Positions 1 to 37,363 of a DNA stretch of 37,363 nucleotides are shown piece by piece (position 1 is the first letter of the stretch; every line of letters begins with the position of its first letter). The translations under genes were made by a program, and so were the position numbers. This stretch comes from a virus (Duplodnaviria; Caudoviricetes): positions 1 through 37,363 of IMG/VR virus record IMGVR_UViG_3300030708_003795; one strand, 5' to 3'. The notes below the pieces were generated by a model. That model had not been told where the DNA came from and made no database searches. It saw only the letters and a list, made by a program, of their open reading frames with translations.

Positions 1-68
1 TCGAAATTTGCATCCTGATCATCGTTATTTGGTTCCTGATTATTTCCAAGGATCGAAAAATCAGATGA
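1..68 (+). CDS. 5'-truncated copy of 23-aa hydrophobic peptide (..EICILIIVIWFLIISKDRKIR)
   Basis: Same peptide as 36940-37011; differences are synonymous (CGA/CGG, ATC/ATA, AGA/CGA). Confidence 0.65.
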   Translation, partial: EICILIIVIWFLIISKDRKIR

Positions 69-73
69 TGATT

Positions 74-134
74 TATCGGAACATCCCGACATTTTTAACA
101 TCCGATATTATTGGATGGTCGGGATGTTCCGATA
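74..134 (+). other. Long stem-loop (17-bp perfect arms plus inner 8-bp stem)
   Basis: TATCGGAACATCCCGAC (74-90) is the reverse complement of 118-134; inner CATCCGAT/ATTGGATG (99-117) with one G-U pair. Confidence 0.8.
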
Positions 135-194
135 TTCCCTTGCCACTTCGACCCTGGCAGCCTAACTCGCGACGCGGAAACCAGCTCCAATCGT

Positions 195-235
195 CACAGA
201 AACCACAGAAATCACAGAGACCACAGCAACCACAG
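195..235 (+). repeat. Tandem array of 5 CACAG motifs with exact 9-nt period
   Basis: CACAG at 195, 204, 213, 222, 231. Confidence 0.9.
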
Positions 236-255
236 TAGAAAGAAAGGTACCCCCC

Positions 256-495
256 ATGGAAATTTACAACGATGCCGATATCGAATCGAGGAACGCAGAA
301 AATTTTGGGAACTCGATTCCTGAACCGGATGAAACAAAAAAGATGCATCCCTTGGAAGCCCTTAATTTAGATGGATTCTGGTACGGTGATATAAAAACCG
401 ATATCGAAAAACGGGCTGGGATTTGGTTTGTTGCTGGAACAACCCATCGAATCGGCAAACCTGGATCGCAAGAATTGTACAGATTTAAATCCTAA
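256..495 (+). CDS. Hypothetical early protein (79 aa)
   Basis: AGAAAGG SD-like motif upstream; allelic copy at 37147-37363 differs mostly by synonymous or conservative changes in this frame. Confidence 0.85.
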   Translation: MEIYNDADIESRNAENFGNSIPEPDETKKMHPLEALNLDGFWYGDIKTDIEKRAGIWFVAGTTHRIGKPGSQELYRFKS

Positions 496-1094: not shown

Positions 1095-1535
1095 ATGAGC
1101 CGGTTGCACAACTACAAACACCCCGTTAAAAACCCCACCAGGAAAAGGCTGATCTTCAAAAGGGAGATTCTGGAGGGAGAAAACAGCCGTGAGTATCTTG
1201 CCCGTTTGGCCTATGTAGAAATGCACCCTCTTTGGCAGTTAATGAGGGAAAGAGGCTATAATCCGTCAAGTTTGGCCCGGAAAATGAAGAAATCGCCGGC
1301 TTATATTTGGCAGAAACTGGAACACAATCGGTGCGATACGGAGATTTTCCTCAATCATATTAAGAAAATCTGGCCTAAAACCGATTGGGGCAAATACCTG
1401 AAAGACCTTTATGTCTGGTACGCCACCGATTATCTGGAAGATCCGGTGCATTTTGTGGCCCAGGCCATGGAGACTCTGGATAAGAATTTCGGCAAAATCA
1501 AAGGAAGAAAGTACTTTCCCAACAAACTAAAATAG
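1095..1535 (+). CDS. Putative XRE-like helix-turn-helix DNA-binding protein (start may instead be the in-frame ATG at 759)
   Basis: GGAG-type SD before ATG 1095; LMRERGYNPSSLARKMKKSPAYIWQKLE resembles an HTH. Confidence 0.6.
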   Translation: MSRLHNYKHPVKNPTRKRLIFKREILEGENSREYLARLAYVEMHPLWQLMRERGYNPSSLARKMKKSPAYIWQKLEHNRCDTEIFLNHIKKIWPKTDWGKYLKDLYVWYATDYLEDPVHFVAQAMETLDKNFGKIKGRKYFPNKLK

Positions 1536-1576: not shown

Positions 1577-2452
1577 ATGGTGATTAGCGCAGAAGAGAAG
1601 GAATTCCGCAGAGGAAGTATCGGTGCTTCTGATATTGGGGCGATTATGAACATTTCCCCTTTTGTGAATGCTCACGATATTTTCATGCAGAAAGTGTATG
1701 GAACGGATGAGCCAAAAAGTGAGGCCATTGATATCGGAAACGACTGTGAGCCGATGCTGGTCACCTGGGCACACCATCAAATTGGTGCTGACTGGAGTTT
1801 AGGCGTGGATATCAAAGTGACCAAAACTACCGAAAATGGTTACAACTTTCCGCACCACGCCAACTTGGACGGTCTACTGGTGAAAGACAACCGCAGAATT
1901 GGAATCGAAGCTAAAACTTCCTCCATGTACCAGGCATTTGGTGAAGACGGGTCTGACGAAATCCCCGACCACATCATCATGCAGTGTCAGTGGCAGATCT
2001 GGACTGCAAACCTGGAGAAAGTGGCGGTGCCGGTGCTGACTGCTGAGGAAGGGCTGAAAAGAAAGCTCTACTGGGTGGAAAGAAACGACCAGCTGATCGA
2101 TCAGGCCATCATGCACGGGAAACACTTCTGGGAAGAAAACGTGGTCAAAGGGGTGGCTCCGGAAGAAGTGAGTCCCAGTCTGGAAACTCTGAAGAGGGTT
2201 CGCAGAGAGCCTGAGACCAGTGTGAAAATTGATGAAAACTTGGTCCGAGAGTGGAGAGCCAAGGAAGATATTGCCAGAGAAGCAGCCAAAGAGGCGAAGG
2301 AGGCAAAGGCGAAAGTGCTGGCGACTCTGGGCAATGCAGAAGCAGGTGTCTGCGATCTCGGAACCTTGACCTATTTTGAACAAGCGAGAAAAGAATTTAC
2401 GGTGAAAGCCAGCACTTCTCGCGTTGCCCGTTGGAAAGGCAATAAGAAATGA
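1577..2452 (+). CDS. YqaJ-like viral recombinase / lambda-exonuclease-family 5'-3' exonuclease
   Basis: RRGSIGASDIGAIM, G..CEP, HANLDG, IEAKT, QCQWQ motifs; adjacent to RecT. Confidence 0.92.
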   Translation: MVISAEEKEFRRGSIGASDIGAIMNISPFVNAHDIFMQKVYGTDEPKSEAIDIGNDCEPMLVTWAHHQIGADWSLGVDIKVTKTTENGYNFPHHANLDGLLVKDNRRIGIEAKTSSMYQAFGEDGSDEIPDHIIMQCQWQIWTANLEKVAVPVLTAEEGLKRKLYWVERNDQLIDQAIMHGKHFWEENVVKGVAPEEVSPSLETLKRVRREPETSVKIDENLVREWRAKEDIAREAAKEAKEAKAKVLATLGNAEAGVCDLGTLTYFEQARKEFTVKASTSRVARWKGNKK

Positions 2453-3636
2453 ACACTTTGCAAAGAGTGGACAATTGGCTGGATAAATCTGGCCCGAAAC
2501 TTTTAGAACTGTTGCCGGCAGGAATCGACCAGCCTCGCTTTCTTAGAAACGTGAGCAGCCAGGTCAAAATGAATCCTGCGATTCAGCAGTGTCGCCCGGA
2601 TACGATCATCAATTCCATTGTGAAGGCCACCCACCTGGGCCTGGATATCGGAGTTCTTGGTTCTGCCTACATTGTGCCCTATGGAAATCAGGCTTCTCTG
2701 GTCATTGGGTATGCCGGCCTGATTGATTTGGCCTTCCGCAGTGGAACCGTGAAGAACATTCACAGCGGCGTGGTGAGGGAAAACGACACTTACGAGCGCA
2801 CCCACGACGATTTCTGGCACAAATACAACGCCTTTGATTCCACGGAATCGAGGGGTGAAGTCGTGGGTGCTTACTGTCTGGTGGACCTGAGCAATGGTGG
2901 CCGGCAGATCGAAACCATGAGCCGGGACGAAATCGACCAGATTCGCAATGCCAGCCGGAGTGGAAATGGTCCTGCCTGGACCCAGTACTACGACGAAATG
3001 GCCAAGAAATCGGTGATTCGCAGGGCTTTGAAGCGGATTAAGCTTAGCCCGGAGGCTCAGGAAGTGATTCAGGCTTCGGACGACGCGGAGTTCATTCCTG
3101 CTGAGGTGAGACCTGCCCCGAAAAAGAGGGGTGCGACTGGTTTGGCCAAGCGTCTTGAGGAGCAGGAGAAGGCCCCTGAGGAGCCTGTCGAGGCAGAGTT
3201 CAAGGAAGCACCCCCGGAGCCGGAGCCGGACGTTCAGGAGGCCCCTGAGGAGCCTGTCGAGGTGGCAAAGGTGAATGTTTGGGATCTGCACAAGGAGAGG
3301 GCCAATAAGCTGGCAGCTAAAATGGGCGACCCAATTCGCAAGTGGTACAAAATCACCAAACCCAGGGAGAAACTGCTTCAGGAGCGAATCACCACAGAAG
3401 GGTTCACTGCCAAGCAGGTTGACGAGTTCTGGGATATGGTTGATGGTGTCCTGACTCCCTTCGACAAGTCGAAAGTGGAGCAGTGGAAAGATTCCTGCGA
3501 CCTGGATGTTCTGCTGAGATTGCCGAAGAGAGGCGGAAAAGACCACTTTGAGGCGGCTCGGGAGGGTGCCTACAAGCCCGAGGACAACGGAGTAGTCACC
3601 AGCTCAGTGAGTGTGGAGGACTTGCTCCAGGATTAG
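2449..3636 (+). CDS. recT: RecT-family single-strand annealing protein with long C-terminal extension
   Basis: LGL..G.LGSAYIVPYG..A.LVIGYAGLIDLA.RSG and W..YYDEMAKKSVIRRALK motifs; ATGA-coupled to YqaJ. Confidence 0.92.
   Translation: MNTLQRVDNWLDKSGPKLLELLPAGIDQPRFLRNVSSQVKMNPAIQQCRPDTIINSIVKATHLGLDIGVLGSAYIVPYGNQASLVIGYAGLIDLAFRSGTVKNIHSGVVRENDTYERTHDDFWHKYNAFDSTESRGEVVGAYCLVDLSNGGRQIETMSRDEIDQIRNASRSGNGPAWTQYYDEMAKKSVIRRALKRIKLSPEAQEVIQASDDAEFIPAEVRPAPKKRGATGLAKRLEEQEKAPEEPVEAEFKEAPPEPEPDVQEAPEEPVEVAKVNVWDLHKERANKLAAKMGDPIRKWYKITKPREKLLQERITTEGFTAKQVDEFWDMVDGVLTPFDKSKVEQWKDSCDLDVLLRLPKRGGKDHFEAAREGAYKPEDNGVVTSSVSVEDLLQD
3170..3262 (+). repeat. 24-bp direct repeat (3170-3193, 3239-3262) encoding APEEPVE in the RecT linker
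   Basis: AGGCCCCTGAGGAGCCTGTCGAGG occurs twice. Confidence 0.9.
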
Positions 3637-3663: not shown

Positions 3664-4194
3664 GTGCTAGCCGAAGAGACCATCGGTCAAATTGAGATTG
3701 AATCCGGGGGAACAAGGTTTTCCGTCGAGATTCTCTCAATGTACGGCACGGTCAGGTTGGAAATCACCTCCTCCAATACGCCTGATAATGATCGAGTCCT
3801 TGTTTATTACCCTGAACCTGACGATGAATATCCAGGAATCGTTTTCTACGACACAAAATCCAATCACGATATGGAAGATTGGAGTGTGTTGGAGATTTTC
3901 TGCCACTTGTTCCAGGTCTGGGACGAGGAACCCACGGATGTATTTATCTTGGGTCTAGCCTTACAACCTGAGTATCTGATAATCTCAGAGATGATCCGCA
4001 TCGCTGCCGACAAGGCTAATCTTTGGTACGCCTGGGGTTGCCCCATGAAAAAAGTGATGCGAGTCGCCTTTAAACAAATGATTAAACAGAATGCTGACGC
4101 AAAAACTCCGTTAAGTAAGGCAATTTATCGCCATGCTTTTCAGGTTTTGGCGGCGGTTCAGGCATCGCGTCGAGCAGAAATCAGAGAACAATGA
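3664..4194 (+). CDS. Hypothetical protein (176 aa)
   Basis: Fills the gap in the plus-strand operon; stop overlaps next ATG (ATGA). Confidence 0.7.
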   Translation: MLAEETIGQIEIESGGTRFSVEILSMYGTVRLEITSSNTPDNDRVLVYYPEPDDEYPGIVFYDTKSNHDMEDWSVLEIFCHLFQVWDEEPTDVFILGLALQPEYLIISEMIRIAADKANLWYAWGCPMKKVMRVAFKQMIKQNADAKTPLSKAIYRHAFQVLAAVQASRRAEIREQ

Positions 4195-4391
4195 AAAAAA
4201 AACGACTTATTCAAATCAAGCCCGGTGAGAACTACAACGGATACCTCAATGATTTGGAGTACGATGTCTACCATGGGGAAACCGGGAAAGAAGTCTACGT
4301 CTCCACGCCGGAAGCGGTCTTCGAGATCCAGCTCAAGAACCAGCAACCTGGAACTGGCTGCCAAGCAGATTCTGCAAGCTCACAAAGTTGA
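4191..4391 (+). CDS. Hypothetical protein (66 aa)
   Basis: ATGA coupling to upstream gene; overlaps the next gene. Confidence 0.5.
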   Translation: MKKKRLIQIKPGENYNGYLNDLEYDVYHGETGKEVYVSTPEAVFEIQLKNQQPGTGCQADSASSQS

Positions 4392-4689
4392 GCCTTTTGT
4401 CCAGGAGTACAAGTTTCACCCTGTCAGAAGGTGGCGATTTGATTTCGCTTGGCCTGAAAAGAAACTGGCTCTGGAAGTAGAAGGCGGAATATTTAGAGGG
4501 GGAAGGCACACTTCACCCAAGGGCTTCATCAATGATTGCGAAAAATACAACACTGCGGCCCTTATGGGATGGCGGGTGATTCGTGTGACTTCCCCCCAAA
4601 TTAAGTCTGGGGAACTTCTCGAGTGGATTCAGCAAGGGCTTTCGTCCGGCGGTTCACTATTGACTTGGCATGACAAACGTCCCACATGA
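4264..4689 (+). CDS. DUF559/Vsr-like PD-(D/E)XK endonuclease (start uncertain)
   Basis: QEYKFHPVRRWRFDFAWPEKKLALEVEGG...GRH...D.EKYN.A.LMGWRVIRVT signature. Confidence 0.85.
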   Translation: MSTMGKPGKKSTSPRRKRSSRSSSRTSNLELAAKQILQAHKVEPFVQEYKFHPVRRWRFDFAWPEKKLALEVEGGIFRGGRHTSPKGFINDCEKYNTAALMGWRVIRVTSPQIKSGELLEWIQQGLSSGGSLLTWHDKRPT

Positions 4690-5134
4690 GCTTGTCGCTG
4701 GCAGTGTCATACTCCTGCTGACTGAGAGCGTGAACCCGGAGGTAGTCATCTTCCGGCATGGGACAGCCTTCCTCGAAGAACAGCATACAGCGGCGGTGGT
4801 ACTGATCGAGAGTCTGGAGCCACTTGCGAGCATTCTCGTTTCGCTTCACCGCGTCGCTGTATTCTTCCACGTTTGACCAGAGGGGAAGGTCCACCAAGCC
4901 CCGGACGAACTGGTGCAGTCCTGTAACATGAATGTAATTGCCGTCCCAGCTTCTGAAGTGGCCGGCATCCAGGCTCTCGTCCCACTGGCAAATCCAGTAG
5001 GAAAGCCGCTCTCCAAAGTCATTACTGTTGTGGACGTAGACCCTGCCGTAACTGAGGTGAATGGTTGATTTCAACTGGCCATTCTTAAATCGAAACTCTG
5101 TTTTTTCCTTATGCATATTCGCCTTTCGGGACAA
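4601..5134 (-). CDS. Hypothetical protein (177 aa), last gene of the minus-strand block
   Basis: Follows the CoiA-like gene; convergent overlap with the DUF559-like gene. Confidence 0.6.
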   Translation of the reverse strand: MSRKANMHKEKTEFRFKNGQLKSTIHLSYGRVYVHNSNDFGERLSYWICQWDESLDAGHFRSWDGNYIHVTGLHQFVRGLVDLPLWSNVEEYSDAVKRNENARKWLQTLDQYHRRCMLFFEEGCPMPEDDYLRVHALSQQEYDTASDKLMWDVCHAKSIVNRRTKALAESTREVPQT

Positions 5135-5894
5135 TTACTTTAAGGTTACTAGGAATACAATTTTCATTGTGCCTTCCGTACACAAATTGATTCGTTGATT
5201 TGTATCCCAAGTATCTGTTTTGAAACAAAACATCTGGGTAAAAATGGTGAGACTCCACAATCTTGTACTTACTTCTAGAAAGTTTTTGCAACTCTAGAAA
5301 AACGTACTTGTCGTTTTCACGAATACCGTATTCATAAAACCAAAGACCATTATTTTTTGTTCTTTGCATTATGGACAAATGCTTTTTCCAAGCATTTATT
5401 GTGATGTCATACATTTGGTAAGGAAGTTTGTTTACAGGAATAATCCACCACACTGAAATGCCTAAAGAATTCCAGTATTGAGTTCTTTCGTTAATGGTAT
5501 CTACGGTGATGTCGCTTTTTTGAACTTCAACAGCCATTGAGCCTTGTTTGTTTGGAAGTCTAAGAAAGACATCTGCCCTTTTGCCTTTAGGGCCACTGTT
5601 TGGATGCTTGTATTCCAGTTCAACTACTGCACCTGGTGTGTCGTACTCTTCCTGAAAGAAAAGTTTGAGATCGTTATAAATAGCAATTTTACACTCAATA
5701 TGTTCTGAAGACTCTCCGCTTCCATAATTGCAATTAGATTCTCTGGTGTGGGCAAAGTGGTCTCTGCGAACAGAACATTTTTTAAAGATCACCACGCCGT
5801 TGCATTCAGGACAGCGAAGATCCGCTTGCCTGGCATCATTTGGATGAATGTCCCATGCATAAACCCTTTGCCCATTCACCAGACAGGTAAACAT
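5109..5894 (-). CDS. CoiA-like nuclease (N-terminal Zn-binding CxxC..HFAH, PD-(D/E)XK core)
   Basis: CPEC...HFAH...C...GESSEH, RADVFL, AVEVQKS, ERT..W...GISVWWI. Confidence 0.85.
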   Translation of the reverse strand: MFTCLVNGQRVYAWDIHPNDARQADLRCPECNGVVIFKKCSVRRDHFAHTRESNCNYGSGESSEHIECKIAIYNDLKLFFQEEYDTPGAVVELEYKHPNSGPKGKRADVFLRLPNKQGSMAVEVQKSDITVDTINERTQYWNSLGISVWWIIPVNKLPYQMYDITINAWKKHLSIMQRTKNNGLWFYEYGIRENDKYVFLELQKLSRSKYKIVESHHFYPDVLFQNRYLGYKSTNQFVYGRHNENCIPSNLKVIVPKGEYA

Positions 5895-6154
5895 TACCTT
5901 GCCTCTTCCCGAGCTTCGTCCACCTGCATCTCTTCGTAAGCGTCTCGCATTTCGTCGATCTGCTCCTGTGAAGGAGCCTCACAATCCAACCGGATATCGG
6001 CTTCTTTCTCGTCAGCCATATCCAACATATGCTCATACGAAACCTGCAACCCCAAAGCCAGGTTAAACCTTCTGTTTGGATGTGCATTTTTCAGCGCTTC
6101 AAGATCCTTCAAAAACTGACGAATCAACTTCTTTTCCCTGTCACTGTAAACCAT
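5894..6154 (-). CDS. Hypothetical acidic protein (86 aa)
   Basis: TAATG coupling to the CoiA-like gene; overlaps the end of the MTase beta ORF. Confidence 0.7.
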   Translation of the reverse strand: MVYSDREKKLIRQFLKDLEALKNAHPNRRFNLALGLQVSYEHMLDMADEKEADIRLDCEAPSQEQIDEMRDAYEEMQVDEAREEAR

Positions 6155-7457
6155 GAGTTTGCCTTTCCTGACATAAAACTCTCATTGCCAAAAGTAACTG
6201 CTGCGGGACTTGGCCATTCCCGCAACATTTTAATCTCTGCGCTCTGTTTTCTTTTTTCATGGTAAGTCTCGGGGTGTGGTATTTTTCTCCCACTGGAATG
6301 TCAGCAGGATCTTCCTCCCAGTACCTGGCTGGCTCTTCGGTCATGCAGTATCTCCACCAGCCTTTATAATCGATGTTGATAAAGTCCAGCGAAGTCCAAC
6401 CTATCGGCCAGCCCATCAGCCATTCCACCCAGTCTGGGTTGAGCCGTAATGCTGGCTTTCCAGTCACTTCGTTAACGTGGTCCAGGCGGTCAGTGCGTAA
6501 TTTTCCAGTGTCTTTTCTTATTGAAGAATTTTTCCCTTTGTGGTCCGAGGCTGTTGGAGTCGGCCAATTCTTTTCGTGAGCAGGAACAGCATCTCTCAAG
6601 GGGACTCCCCAACGAACGCCGTCTTTGTTTTTCCGGGAGTATGCTCCTGATTCAGATATCTCTGTATCTTTAGCAATTCCACCCCCGCTGTCGGTTGCAC
6701 TTGGGGTGGGCCATTCTTTAACAGCCCCTTGTGCTGAAAAGGGAGACTTCCCATTCAGCATTTGAGTGGCTTCTTCCTCGCTCAACTTTCCTTCAAGAAC
6801 CTGTTTCCGCAGCAGACGGACATTGCCTTCGTTAGGTCTGGTGTTGACCGTTGGGGTGGGCCATTCCGCTTTATTTGAATACTCGCCCCGATTCCTCAAT
6901 CCTTCTTTTATCATCACTTCTTCATTAAGGATTTTGCCGCCTTTTCCATTTACTCTTGACCCAGGATTAGCGGCTCTGGGGGTAGGCCACGCACCACCAT
7001 CTTTTTCGTTGATGTTTAGCTCCGGCTTCTCTAGCGGCAACAACTCCCCATTTAGCGTCATACCCCAGATCGGCAAGATCTCTAATGACTGTAGGGTACT
7101 TTCTGATGGGTGGGACGTTTTCGAGAATAACTCGAGCTGGACGAACTTCTCCGATGATCCTGGCAGTGTCGGGCCAGCAATTTCTTTCGTCGTCTGCCCC
7201 TCTTTGCCGGCCCGCTTTTGAGAAGGGTTGGCATGGGAATCCAGCAGAAATGACATCGACAAGGCCATTCCAGGGGTGCCCGTCGAAGGTTTTAACGTCG
7301 TCCCAGATGGGGAAGACTGGGAGGCATTTGTCTTCTTGCCTCCGCATAAGGATCTCTCTGCAATACGGATCTTTTTCCACCGCGCACACGACCCGGTGAC
7401 CCATACTTTCGCTTGCGAGAATTCCGCCACCAACTCCAGCGAACAGTGCCAACTCAT
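6141..7457 (-). CDS. C5-cytosine methyltransferase second polypeptide (variable region with 4 WPTP repeats, motif IX and motif X), in the +1 frame
   Basis: WPTP x4, LNPDWVEWLMGWPIGWT, RLKCCGNGQVPQ; ATG 4 nt downstream of the catalytic ORF's ATG. Confidence 0.8.
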   Translation of the reverse strand: MSWHCSLELVAEFSQAKVWVTGSCARWKKIRIAERSLCGGKKTNASQSSPSGTTLKPSTGTPGMALSMSFLLDSHANPSQKRAGKEGQTTKEIAGPTLPGSSEKFVQLELFSKTSHPSESTLQSLEILPIWGMTLNGELLPLEKPELNINEKDGGAWPTPRAANPGSRVNGKGGKILNEEVMIKEGLRNRGEYSNKAEWPTPTVNTRPNEGNVRLLRKQVLEGKLSEEEATQMLNGKSPFSAQGAVKEWPTPSATDSGGGIAKDTEISESGAYSRKNKDGVRWGVPLRDAVPAHEKNWPTPTASDHKGKNSSIRKDTGKLRTDRLDHVNEVTGKPALRLNPDWVEWLMGWPIGWTSLDFINIDYKGWWRYCMTEEPARYWEEDPADIPVGEKYHTPRLTMKKENRAQRLKCCGNGQVPQQLLLAMRVLCQERQTHGLQ

Positions 7458-7461
7458 TCAA
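6967..7461 (-). CDS. C5-cytosine methyltransferase catalytic polypeptide (motifs I-VIII only)
   Basis: LFAGVGG (I), AGFPCQPFS (IV), ENV (VI), HQRKRWW (VIII), then stop. Confidence 0.93.
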   Translation of the reverse strand: MNELALFAGVGGGILASESMGHRVVCAVEKDPYCREILMRRQEDKCLPVFPIWDDVKTFDGHPWNGLVDVISAGFPCQPFSKAGRQRGADDERNCWPDTARIIGEVRPARVILENVPPIRKYPTVIRDLADLGYDAKWGVVAAREAGAKHQRKRWWCVAYPQSR

Positions 7462-32444: not shown

Positions 32445-32927
32445 TTGACACAAGAACTTTTAGACGCACTCGCCACTCTCAATGAGAACATGGAGAAAAA
32501 CAACCAACTTCTCCGGGGCATCTCCAACCTCATTGAGGAAAACCCAGGTCTCGACAAATTTGCCCAGGAGCTTCACAAACTTTCCACTTCCATTGGGCAA
32601 ATTGGCAAAATAGCCGCTTCTGAAATACAGGGGAAATCTGGAAACACCGACAGCAAGGGCCGCTCGATTGTCAAGCCCCAGTGGGAAAAGTGCGACACCA
32701 AGGGAGACTGGGTTTGCCGGAAACCCGAAAATGCCAAAGAAACCGAATGCAAAAAGTGCGGGAAAAAGATTATTTGGACCGTGACCAAAAACAACAAAAA
32801 AATGCCCATTTCAGAATGCCCCACAAGACCCTCCTGGTGGGTCAGCCATTTCGATTCCTGCAAACCCGACAATCCCTCGCCAGCTCCTGCCGCTAAAAGC
32901 GACCAAGACATGGACTTCCCCTTCTAA
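32445..32927 (+). CDS. Coiled-coil + Zn-binding protein with SSB-like acidic tail (DQDMDFPF)
   Basis: AGAAAGG SD before TTG; CKKCGKKIIW..T...KKMP...SHFDSC. Confidence 0.75.
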   Translation: MTQELLDALATLNENMEKNNQLLRGISNLIEENPGLDKFAQELHKLSTSIGQIGKIAASEIQGKSGNTDSKGRSIVKPQWEKCDTKGDWVCRKPENAKETECKKCGKKIIWTVTKNNKKMPISECPTRPSWWVSHFDSCKPDNPSPAPAAKSDQDMDFPF

Positions 32928-35275: not shown

Positions 35276-35433
35276 TGTCTAGATTTTTCGAAATCCTGTT
35301 TTTGATTGTGTATTTGCCATTCATGTTCATCGGCATCTGGATCCACGAATTACGGGGATTGTGGGATAAAGAACCGGGAATGCACATCGAGCCGGAATAC
35401 ACTGAACCTGAGAGGAGAGGAAAAGATGAATAG
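35275..35433 (+). CDS. Small membrane protein MSRFFEILFLIVYLPFMFIGIWIHELRG... (52 aa; not in ORF track)
   Basis: Translated by hand; TAATG coupling; N-terminal TM helix. Confidence 0.65.
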   Translation: MSRFFEILFLIVYLPFMFIGIWIHELRGLWDKEPGMHIEPEYTEPERRGKDE

Positions 35434-35926
35434 GAAAACCGCAAACATCGAGAAAGTACTGAATCATCTTCGGAACGGGAACCGGGCCAGGGTTGCCGAT
35501 TGGGATGAAAAGGAATTTATTCAGTACGACCCGACAAAGGGAATCGTCACGGAAACCGATGAAGAATGCAACGGGATGGTTTTTATCGTCAACTCTGACT
35601 GGGAACTGATTCCTCCAAGAGATGAAGAAAAGGAATTTCTCGTTTTCTCGACGCGGATCCGTCGAAATACTAACGAGTCCGATCATGAAGAAACCGAGTG
35701 TGTGGATACTCCAGAAAAGCAGACCATTAAAGAAATTCTTGAGTGGTGGAATGAATCAGACCTGGGTCGCAAAAATAAAGATGATATCGATCTGGAGGAA
35801 AAACTTTATAAGGCCGATGCCGGATCGACCATCACCGTTGAATCTGGTGCGAGTGGTGGATGGGATTGGTGGCTGAACAATTTTGTTTGTCTCGACGGAC
35901 AAGATGATTGGTGGATCGAGTACTAA
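35426..35926 (+). CDS. Acidic early protein (166 aa); N-terminus weakly DUF2829/Tad2-like
   Basis: GAGGAGAGG SD before ATG 35426; IEKVL..LRNG.RAR...W...DWEL. Confidence 0.75.
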   Translation: MNRKTANIEKVLNHLRNGNRARVADWDEKEFIQYDPTKGIVTETDEECNGMVFIVNSDWELIPPRDEEKEFLVFSTRIRRNTNESDHEETECVDTPEKQTIKEILEWWNESDLGRKNKDDIDLEEKLYKADAGSTITVESGASGGWDWWLNNFVCLDGQDDWWIEY

Positions 35927-36943: not shown

Positions 36944-37011
36944 TCGAAATTTGCATCCTGATCATCGTTATTTGGTTCCTGATTATTTCCAAGGATCGGA
37001 AAATACGATGA
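36940..37011 (+). CDS. 23-aa hydrophobic peptide MIEICILIIVIWFLIISKDRKIR
   Basis: ATGA overlap with Gp88-like stop, GGGGG upstream; synonymous-only differences from the copy at 1-68. Confidence 0.7.
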   Translation: MIEICILIIVIWFLIISKDRKIR

Positions 37012-37017
37012 CTGTTT

Positions 37018-37070
37018 GGGGAGTTGGCCAGTTGGTCGGCTCCCCCCATTTTCCGCGTCGCGACGCGGAA
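37018..37070 (+). other. GC-rich hairpin followed by a perfect 20-bp palindrome
   Basis: GGGGAGUUGGCC/GGUCGGCUCCCC stem (G-U pairs favour + strand); TTCCGCGTCGCGACGCGGAA at 37051-37070. Confidence 0.75.
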
Positions 37071-37085
37071 TCCGGACCTGGCAGC

Positions 37086-37126
37086 CACAGATACCACAGA
37101 AAACACAGAGAACACAGAAACCACAG
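37086..37126 (+). repeat. Tandem array of 5 CACAG motifs with 9-nt period (allele of 195-235)
   Basis: CACAG at 37086, 37095, 37104, 37113, 37122. Confidence 0.9.
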
Positions 37127-37146
37127 TAGAAAGAAAGGTACTCCCC

Positions 37147-37363
37147 ATGGAAATTTACAACGATGCCGATATCGAATCGAGGAACGCAGAAAACTTTGCA
37201 AACTCGATTCCCGAACCGGAGGAAACAAAAAAGATGCATCCCCTGGAAGCTCTCAATTTAGATGGCTATTGGTACGGTGATATAAAAACCGACATCGAAA
37301 AACGGGATGGAATTTGGTTTGTTGCAGGAACAACCCATCGAATCGGCAAACCTGGATCGCAAG
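37147..37363 (+). CDS. 3'-truncated allele of the 256-495 gene
   Basis: MEIYNDADIESRNAENFANSIPEPEETKKM...; 4 amino-acid changes and about 9 synonymous changes versus the left copy. Confidence 0.8.
   Translation, partial: MEIYNDADIESRNAENFANSIPEPEETKKMHPLEALNLDGYWYGDIKTDIEKRDGIWFVAGTTHRIGKPGSQ

What the first reader, a model, noticed from the sequence alone, without database searches (positions are those of the whole stretch)
2449..3636. RecT fused to a replication-initiator-like C-terminal domain in a genome without replication genes
Seen: after the RecT core (~215 aa) and a Pro/Glu linker with a 24-bp duplication comes a folded-looking ~120-aa domain, VWDLH...KITKPREKLLQERI..EG...EFW...W...DLDVLLR...HFEAAREGAY. 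Recalled: C-terminal domains of phage replisome organiser/O-like initiators follow a similar pattern (W.....T..R...I..R..E...W..DFDWL.....F.K..EG.Y) and are thought to recruit helicase loaders. No polymerase, primase, helicase or separate initiator is recognisable here. Inference: a single protein could couple strand annealing to host replisome loading (recombination-initiated replication).
Basis: partly seen in the sequence, partly recalled or inferred. Interest (0 to 1): 0.7.

Follow-up and report, generated by a model that had tools for sequence, protein, structure and literature searches.

The report
Phage annealase with replication-initiator tail
In a group of small uncultivated phages with no recognisable replication genes, the DNA-annealing protein (RecT, or in one branch the unrelated ERF) carries a C-terminal domain also found on phage replication-initiator-type proteins, which likely lets it bring the host's DNA helicase to recombination joints so that copying would start without an origin-binding initiator.

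Summary
Observation confirmed. ORF 2449-3636 is RecT plus a Pro/Glu linker plus a conserved ~100-aa all-helical domain (model pLDDT 94). A profile search of 1.84 billion proteins gave 39 hits: the domain sits behind RecT (11), behind the unrelated annealase ERF (3), behind initiator-type winged-helix N-termini (6), alone, fragmentary or on unknown domains (17); 2 hits are spurious. The family is a remote homologue of the HK022-O/P22-gp18-type initiator C-terminal domain (profile score 37, controls at most 20; top viral fold hit an initiator, TM 0.64, E 0.21). It does not match lambda O's or Red-beta's C-terminal domain, though those tests are weak. In 10 of 13 annotated phages that canonical domain's gene is followed by a DnaB-type helicase. 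Six 89-100% complete phages share YqaJ - annealase+domain - small ORF - nuclease and show no helicase, primase, polymerase or initiator. Best reading (about 0.47): the domain recruits the host helicase at recombination joints. No binding partner was shown, and repurposing as an exonuclease/SSB-binding tag remains possible. I found no description of the fusion in four paper searches.

The parts
2449..3093 (+). RecT annealase core (residues 1-215)
   Evidence: Pfam PF03837 residues 30-205, E 5.6e-41; phrog_148; matches solved RecT 7ub2 only over the core
3094..3270 (+). Pro/Glu-rich variable linker with a 27-nt duplication (3167-3193, 3236-3262)
3271..3576 (+). Initiator-type C-terminal domain, about 100 aa, six helices; near-invariant W, R, R, W, L, R, D, H
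3577..3636 (+). Variable acidic tail and stop codon
1577..2452 (+). YqaJ/RecE-like exonuclease; its stop overlaps the RecT start
   Evidence: PF09588 E 1.1e-12, phrog_434; directly upstream in 6 of 6 fully read genomes
3664..4194 (+). 176-aa ORF of no known family, in the slot where initiator operons carry the helicase or loader
   Evidence: Homologues in G001-G006, G046, G047; homology to the same-slot ORFs of G044 and G048 not shown; no Pfam, PHROG or PDB match
4225..4689 (+). phrog_503 protein, last gene of the module; likely a nuclease (branch-resolving role is inference)
   Evidence: phrog_503 E 7.9e-42 plus weak endonuclease PHROGs; conserved position
1095..1535 (+). XRE-like helix-turn-helix protein upstream of YqaJ (frame open from 609; about 290 aa in relatives)
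   Evidence: HTH_26 E 0.096; family vs G047 XRE 91%, no match to 6 initiator N-termini; alignment
32445..32927 (+). Small CxxC protein ending in an SSB-tip-like tail (..DMDFPF); possible accessory
   Evidence: Tail ending in PF after a hydrophobic residue in 8 of 8 homologues checked; phrog_5984

Best explanation
The protein is a RecT annealase fused to a domain shared with phage replication-initiator-type proteins, and that domain likely recruits the host's DnaB-type helicase (directly or through an adaptor) to the recombination joint that RecT would make, so replication would start from recombination rather than from an initiator-bound origin. Steps: (1) YqaJ resects DNA ends to 3' tails (family knowledge). 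(2) RecT oligomerises on the tail and anneals or invades a homologous phage genome (family knowledge; documented for SPP1 G35P, PMC3485210). (3) The RecT oligomer displays many copies of the domain on flexible linkers, standing in for the initiator oligomer on iterons (inferred). (4) The domain loads host helicase, which recruits host primase and polymerase (inferred from homology and gene context). (5) The downstream nuclease would process branches into packageable concatemers (inferred). Shown: fusion, conservation, fold, homology, gene order, absence of recognisable replication genes. Not shown: any binding partner.
For: The same domain is the C-terminus of 6 of 39 hits with initiator-type N-termini. 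Five are strong (phrog_2509, phrog_9474, phrog_270, HTH_36; E 3e-30 to 4e-9) and one is weak. Family vs 18 canonical initiator C-terminal domains: probability 86.9, P 4.2e-6, score 37, 75 columns. RecT-fused members alone give 84%. Controls: 100 column shuffles reach at most 19.7, reversed 10.9; 15 windows of real families and 2 other initiator tail types reach at most 14.4. phrog_345 (O-like initiator) is the only PHROG hit by more than one member, 5 of 39. Top viral fold hit is a replication initiator (TMq 0.64, prob 0.98), with three more named replication proteins at TMq 0.55-0.61. The canonical domain's gene is followed by an annotated helicase in 10 of 13 GenBank phages. The domain is kept while the annealase is swapped: ERF phage G048 is closer to the window (terminase 64%, portal 55-56%) than RecT phage G044 (45-46%, 41%). 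No helicase, primase, polymerase or initiator in six 89-100% complete genomes. phrog_345 found in 0 of 6 fusion records against 11 of 37 plain-RecT records. Precedent: SPP1 G35P loads a replisome at a D-loop through helicase G40P (PMC3485210, passages).
Against: The link to the canonical family is remote. The 8 closest members alone give only 10%, all Foldseek E-values are 0.21 or worse, and phrog_345 E-values are 0.017 or worse. I saw no paper that maps helicase binding to the HK022-O/P22-gp18 C-terminal domain; that role is inferred from gene order. All 5 IMG/VR canonical initiators are followed by a Cys-rich non-helicase protein. No contigs were available for the 6 initiator-type members, so their neighbours are unknown. 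The domain also occurs alone or behind unknown domains (17 of 39), so it is a mobile module that may have changed job. Its tree is unresolved and gives no direction of transfer. Profile absence cannot exclude an unrecognised initiator: only 98 selected ORFs of the relatives and the window went into, and the Walker-A pattern missed G044's terminase. Only 3 of the 11 phrog_345 matches cover the C-terminal part. Annealases are poor strand invaders in general (recalled). The host is unknown.
Confidence: 0.47

Rival explanations
1. The domain came from an initiator family but now does the ordinary annealase-tail job: it binds the cognate YqaJ exonuclease and/or host SSB to load the annealase. Replication starts by some other, unrecognised route.
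For: Red-beta's C-terminal domain binds Exo and SSB (PMC6393309 abstract). RecT tails vary widely in fold (PMC13490951 section 20). YqaJ lies directly upstream in 6 of 6 genomes, including the ERF one, which also explains retention through an annealase swap.
Against: YqaJ is only 25-37% identical between the deeper branches while the domain keeps near-invariant residues that it shares with initiator-type and stand-alone proteins. No similarity to Red-beta's tail (0.18%, single-sequence test, weak). This reading leaves replication of six near-complete genomes unexplained.
Confidence: 0.24
2. The domain binds DNA (single-stranded or forked) rather than a helicase. It stabilises the displaced strand or open bubble, and host restart proteins (PriA-type) load the helicase, perhaps helped by the SSB-tip-like protein at 32445-32927.
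For: The invariant residues are mostly Arg, Trp and His, which would suit nucleic-acid binding. An SSB-tip-like tail is conserved in 8 of 8 homologues. DnaD/DnaT-type initiator tails bind ssDNA (recalled).
Against: No match to the DnaD-like or second initiator tail type tested (0.04% and 0.6%, two-sequence profiles). The canonical relatives mostly sit directly before a helicase gene.
Confidence: 0.16
3. Split initiator: replication does start at an origin. The XRE-like protein at 609/1095-1535 binds the 9-bp ACCACAGAR repeats, and the RecT-borne domain supplies helicase loading in trans.
For: Clusters of 9-bp repeats at 202-229, 872-1019 and 37093-37129 (10 matches, none of 100 shuffles as many). 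A helix-turn-helix gene precedes YqaJ in 5 of 6 genomes.
Against: The repeat clusters occur only in the window and L074/L075. They are absent from G001, G044, G046, G047, G048, L003 and L004. The protein resembles XRE regulators, not initiator N-termini.
Confidence: 0.1
4. The similarity to initiators is convergent or a relic, and the domain has no replication-related role.
For: Remote scores against the canonical family; no solved-structure match.
Against: Database-wide E-values of 2e-13 to 4e-6 to proteins with initiator-type N-termini; purifying selection; retention across RecT and ERF.
Confidence: 0.03

Closest known systems
HK022 gene O / P22 gp18-type replication initiators (PHROG phrog_345, C-terminal domain) with a downstream DnaB-like helicase (HK022 P, P22 gp12)
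   Same: Remote homology of the C-terminal domain, including the R..I..R, W..L(D/E).L and F....EG.Y motifs; same end position behind a low-complexity linker.
   Different: The origin-binding winged-helix N-terminus is replaced by RecT or ERF. No helicase gene follows. The family has its own LLRVPxRGxxDH insert. No family-wide iterons.
SPP1 recombination-dependent replication: G34.1P exonuclease, G35P (RecT-like), G36P, G38P, G39P, G40P
   Same: Exonuclease-annealase pair proposed to start a fork at a D-loop by contacting the helicase (PMC3485210, passages).
   Different: SPP1 encodes and needs its own initiator, loader and helicase. Here none is recognisable and an initiator-type domain is fused to the annealase.
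Lambda Exo-Red-beta and RecE/YqaJ-RecT pairs
   Same: YqaJ followed by RecT with overlapping stop and start; annealase core plus linker plus helical tail.
   Different: Red-beta's tail is a three-helix bundle binding Exo and SSB (PMC6393309 abstract). This tail has six helices and is shared with initiator-type proteins. It was found in 6 of the 60 RecT loci.
Staphylococcal phage 80alpha and phi11 Sak/Sak4 recombinases needed for replication
   Same: Annealase tied to phage DNA replication (PMC5499656, passages).
   Different: Those phages have a separate initiator and DnaC-like loader.

Membership tests
RecT family annealase (PF03837) | RecT core above the Pfam cut-off | tested here: met
   140.7 bits against cut-off 24; 7ub2 match over the core
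RecT family annealase (PF03837) | Adjacent cognate 5'-3' exonuclease gene | tested here: met
   YqaJ at 1577-2452 overlapping the start
RecT family annealase (PF03837) | ssDNA annealing activity | not testable with these tools
   needs an assay
HK022-O/P22-gp18-type initiator | C-terminal domain homology | tested here: met
   Probability 87%, score 37 against controls of at most 20; top fold hit TMq 0.64. Remote and family-level only.
HK022-O/P22-gp18-type initiator | N-terminal winged-helix origin-binding domain | tested here: not met
   The N-terminus is RecT
HK022-O/P22-gp18-type initiator | Four or more iterons inside the gene | tested here: not met
   Only a two-copy 27-nt linker duplication
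HK022-O/P22-gp18-type initiator | Helicase or loader gene directly downstream | tested here: inconclusive
   No helicase. The downstream 176-aa ORF matches no family and not lambda P or HK022 P (single-sequence tests).
HK022-O/P22-gp18-type initiator | Binds a DnaB-type helicase | not tested
   Host unknown, no cognate helicase available
Lambda O C-terminal (P-binding) domain | Profile similarity | tested here: inconclusive
   0.45% against the single lambda O sequence; the same test also misses HK022 O (0.38%), so it is weak. The canonical profile does not match lambda O either.
Red-beta C-terminal Exo/SSB-binding domain | Three-helix bundle homologous to Red-beta CTD/Orf | tested here: inconclusive
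   Model has six helices; 0.18% against the single Red-beta tail; not listed in the fold searches, which does not exclude it

The most novel reading that the evidence does not exclude
A clade of small podovirus-type phages has dispensed with origin-binding initiators. An exonuclease-annealase pair makes the primer-template joint, and a helicase-recruiting domain taken from phage initiators, grafted on either RecT or ERF, loads the host replisome there. This would be a minimal, purely recombination-initiated replicon in two or three genes.
Probability: 0.35. Interest if true: 0.87.

Novelty: new variant of a known kind. Interest (0 to 1): 0.7.

Why it matters
How annealase-made joints are handed to a replisome is unresolved even in SPP1, lambda and staphylococcal phages (PMC3485210, PMC5499656). 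A natural fusion names a candidate hand-over domain and makes the question testable with one small protein. It would explain how many uncultivated phages with no replication genes copy their DNA. It also gives a handle on the uncharacterised C-terminal domain of P22/HK022-type initiators, which has no Pfam family and no solved structure found by sequence. An annealase that loads a helicase could matter for recombineering.

Tried and rejected
Complex prediction of the domain with the 176-aa downstream ORF gave no verdict (score 0.00); it is no evidence either way. The isolated domain matched nothing in Pfam, PHROGs or NCBIfam, PDB sequences or GenBank phages, and the ESM Atlas gave no usable hit (ORF176). 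The good model found no PDB fold (best Z 4.8; Foldseek none). A motif scan of GTDB genomes returned 37 loci, none with the full domain, so no host was obtained. Names on two homologues (a Planctomycetota MAG; an archaeal MAG) are bin labels, not host evidence. Of 10 loci, 7 were true; of 15, the new true ones were L156, L159, L160, L163, L164 and three inspected were chance. Five further terminase relatives were 28-72% fragments without a match, uninformative. P0014 and P0047 were dropped as spurious repeats before alignment A3; P0003 was left out as near-identical; P0018 and P0020 were left out of the tree as fragments. The idea that ORF176 is one family across all genomes was not supported for G044 (0.5%) or G048 (4%; reversed controls 2.2% and 0.1%). 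G048's ATPase is a MoxR-vWA pair, not a loader. The linker duplication as iterons was rejected: two copies, not conserved beyond close relatives. No RNA holder was listed. One paper on annealase classification was not held, and supplements of PMC13490951 (Figs S10-S11 on RecT tails) were not read; either could bear on novelty.

Full report
Observation. window:2449-3636(+) encodes 395 aa. RecT covers residues 30-205. A Pro/Glu linker follows with a 27-nt duplication, then a domain of about 100 aa and a variable acidic tail. In 8 relatives the domain is 56-97% identical while the linker is 27-78%, and pN is far below saturated pS in 4 of 4 pairs. A contig from another study bridges core, linker and domain. 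The window is a virus record rated 100% complete with podovirus-type head, portal, terminase and nozzle genes. Tool labels for runs that hold it are mostly marine metagenomes.

Where else the domain occurs. A profile of 8 close tails searched against 1.84 billion proteins gave 39 hits. By Pfam and PHROG, 11 have RecT in front, 3 have ERF, and 6 have an initiator-type winged-helix N-terminus (five at E 3e-30 to 4e-9, one weak). Seventeen are stand-alone, fragmentary or behind unknown domains, and 2 are spurious repeats. The 39-row alignment has three invariant and five nearly invariant columns and folds at pLDDT 94 into six helices.

Relation to known initiators. The top viral fold hit is a replication initiator (TMq 0.64, probability 0.98, E 0.21). 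Three more named replication proteins score TMq 0.55-0.61, and none reaches E 0.001. The PDB has no match. phrog_345 is the only PHROG hit by more than one member (5 of 39, E 0.017 or worse). I built a profile of 18 canonical phrog_345-type tails, including HK022 O, annotated as similar to P22 gp18. It aligns with the family over 75 columns at 86.9%, score 37. RecT-fused members alone give 84%. Shuffled, reversed and real-family controls stay at or below 20, 11 and 14.4. Against this, the 8 closest members alone give 10%. Lambda O and Red-beta tails do not match, but single-sequence tests also miss HK022 O, so they are weak. In 10 of 13 GenBank phages used, the next gene is annotated as a helicase; 2 are hypothetical and 1 was not shown. 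In 5 of 5 IMG/VR loci it is a Cys-rich protein.

Genomic context. Thirteen virus records carry the fusion: G000-G006, G044, G046 and G047 with RecT, and G048-G050 of the ERF type, G050 cut before the ERF part. The six that are 89-100% complete and were read in full share the order YqaJ, annealase plus domain, a 160-185-aa ORF, phrog_503, then the oppositely oriented virion genes. PHROG and Pfam scans of the window ORFs and of 98 selected ORFs found no polymerase, primase, helicase or initiator. A Walker-A scan of all ORFs of 100 aa or more found only terminases and a MoxR ATPase in ATPase-like context, and it missed one terminase. phrog_345 rang in 0 of 6 fusion records and 11 of 37 plain-RecT records. 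The 15 fused RecT cores form one side of a branch against 21 plain RecTs (SH-aLRT 98, quick tree, biased outgroup sample), consistent with one old fusion. The ERF phage is closer to the window than the most distant RecT phage by terminase and portal, so the annealase was likely exchanged while the domain stayed. The domain tree is unresolved.

Mechanism. Most likely (0.47), YqaJ makes 3' tails, RecT pairs them with another genome copy, and the tethered domains recruit the host DnaB-type helicase as the canonical domain is inferred to do for its phage helicase. Fusion, fold, homology, gene order and gene absence are shown. The partner is inferred. The rivals are an ordinary exonuclease/SSB-binding role (0.24), DNA binding with host restart (0.16), a split initiator using the upstream XRE-like protein and 9-bp repeats, which are not conserved across the clade (0.10), and no replication role (0.03). 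Earlier scan notes raised the hidden-initiator caution (e1-132755) and the tag rival (e1-10063108), and reported initiator tails on other proteins (e1-9837359, e1-7781535, e1-9586921). They are unchecked leads.

Literature seen. PMC3485210 (passages): SPP1 G35P forms D-loops and loads the replisome through G40P, but SPP1 needs its own initiator. PMC5499656 (passages): Sak and Sak4 are needed for replication beside an initiator-loader pair. PMC6393309 (abstract, outline): Red-beta tail is a three-helix bundle binding Exo and SSB. PMC13490951 (passages, section 20; supplements not read): RecT tails are diverse, with no mention of initiators. PMC2896510 (passages): recombinases lie in replication modules and replace one another; no fusion mentioned. 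bioRxiv 2020.10.05.325894 (passages): P22 gp18 is the origin-binding protein and gp12 a DnaB-type helicase. Searches listed no paper describing an annealase-initiator fusion; the library lacks most subscription papers.

Verdict. A real, conserved, apparently undescribed architecture made of known parts: an annealase carrying an initiator-type C-terminal domain, in a phage clade with no recognisable replication genes. It is not a member of the initiator family, since it lacks the origin-binding domain and iterons, but it likely works like the helicase-recruiting half of one. New variant of a known kind; interest 0.70.

Noticed in passing
window 32445-32927 (+): Small CxxC protein (phrog_5984) whose 8 of 8 checked homologues end in a hydrophobic residue plus PF, mostly after acidic residues (DMDFPF, DDVPF, EQVPF). 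This resembles the SSB C-terminal tip (FDDEIPF in PMC13490951). It may mimic SSB to recruit or block host SSB partners.
   Followed up: partly
window 4601-5134 (-): Unannotated 177-aa ORF is a paralogue of the 176-aa ORF behind RecT (98% probability), facing it on the other strand; also present in L075.
   Followed up: partly
window 6141-7457 and 6967-7461 (-): DNA methyltransferase split over two overlapping reading frames. The same split appears in L002, L005, L006 and L007, suggesting a programmed frameshift or a two-chain enzyme.
   Followed up: no
window 202-229, 872-1019, 37093-37129: Clusters of 9-bp ACCACAGAR direct repeats on one strand, more than shuffles give; expanded in L074 and L075, absent in more distant relatives.
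   Followed up: partly
window 1-466 and 36944-37357: Genome ends repeat at 90-96% identity: likely a circularly closed genome assembled from two strain variants.
   Followed up: no
L170 14033-17142 (G048): MoxR AAA+ ATPase with a vWA partner in the ERF-type phage.
   Followed up: partly
L062, L064, L093, L094, L096, directly after the initiator: Canonical initiators followed by a 193-209-aa Cys-rich protein with no Pfam match in the two scanned, in the helicase/loader slot; a possible undescribed loader.
   Followed up: no
P0016, P0021, P0027, P0029, P0033, P0035, P0044: The same domain stands alone or behind unknown N-terminal domains; some of these may be fragments.
   Followed up: no
window 5109-5894 (-) and 35306-35926 (+): CoiA-like nuclease (E 2.7e-13) and a weak Tad2-like anti-defence match (E 0.0034).
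   Followed up: no
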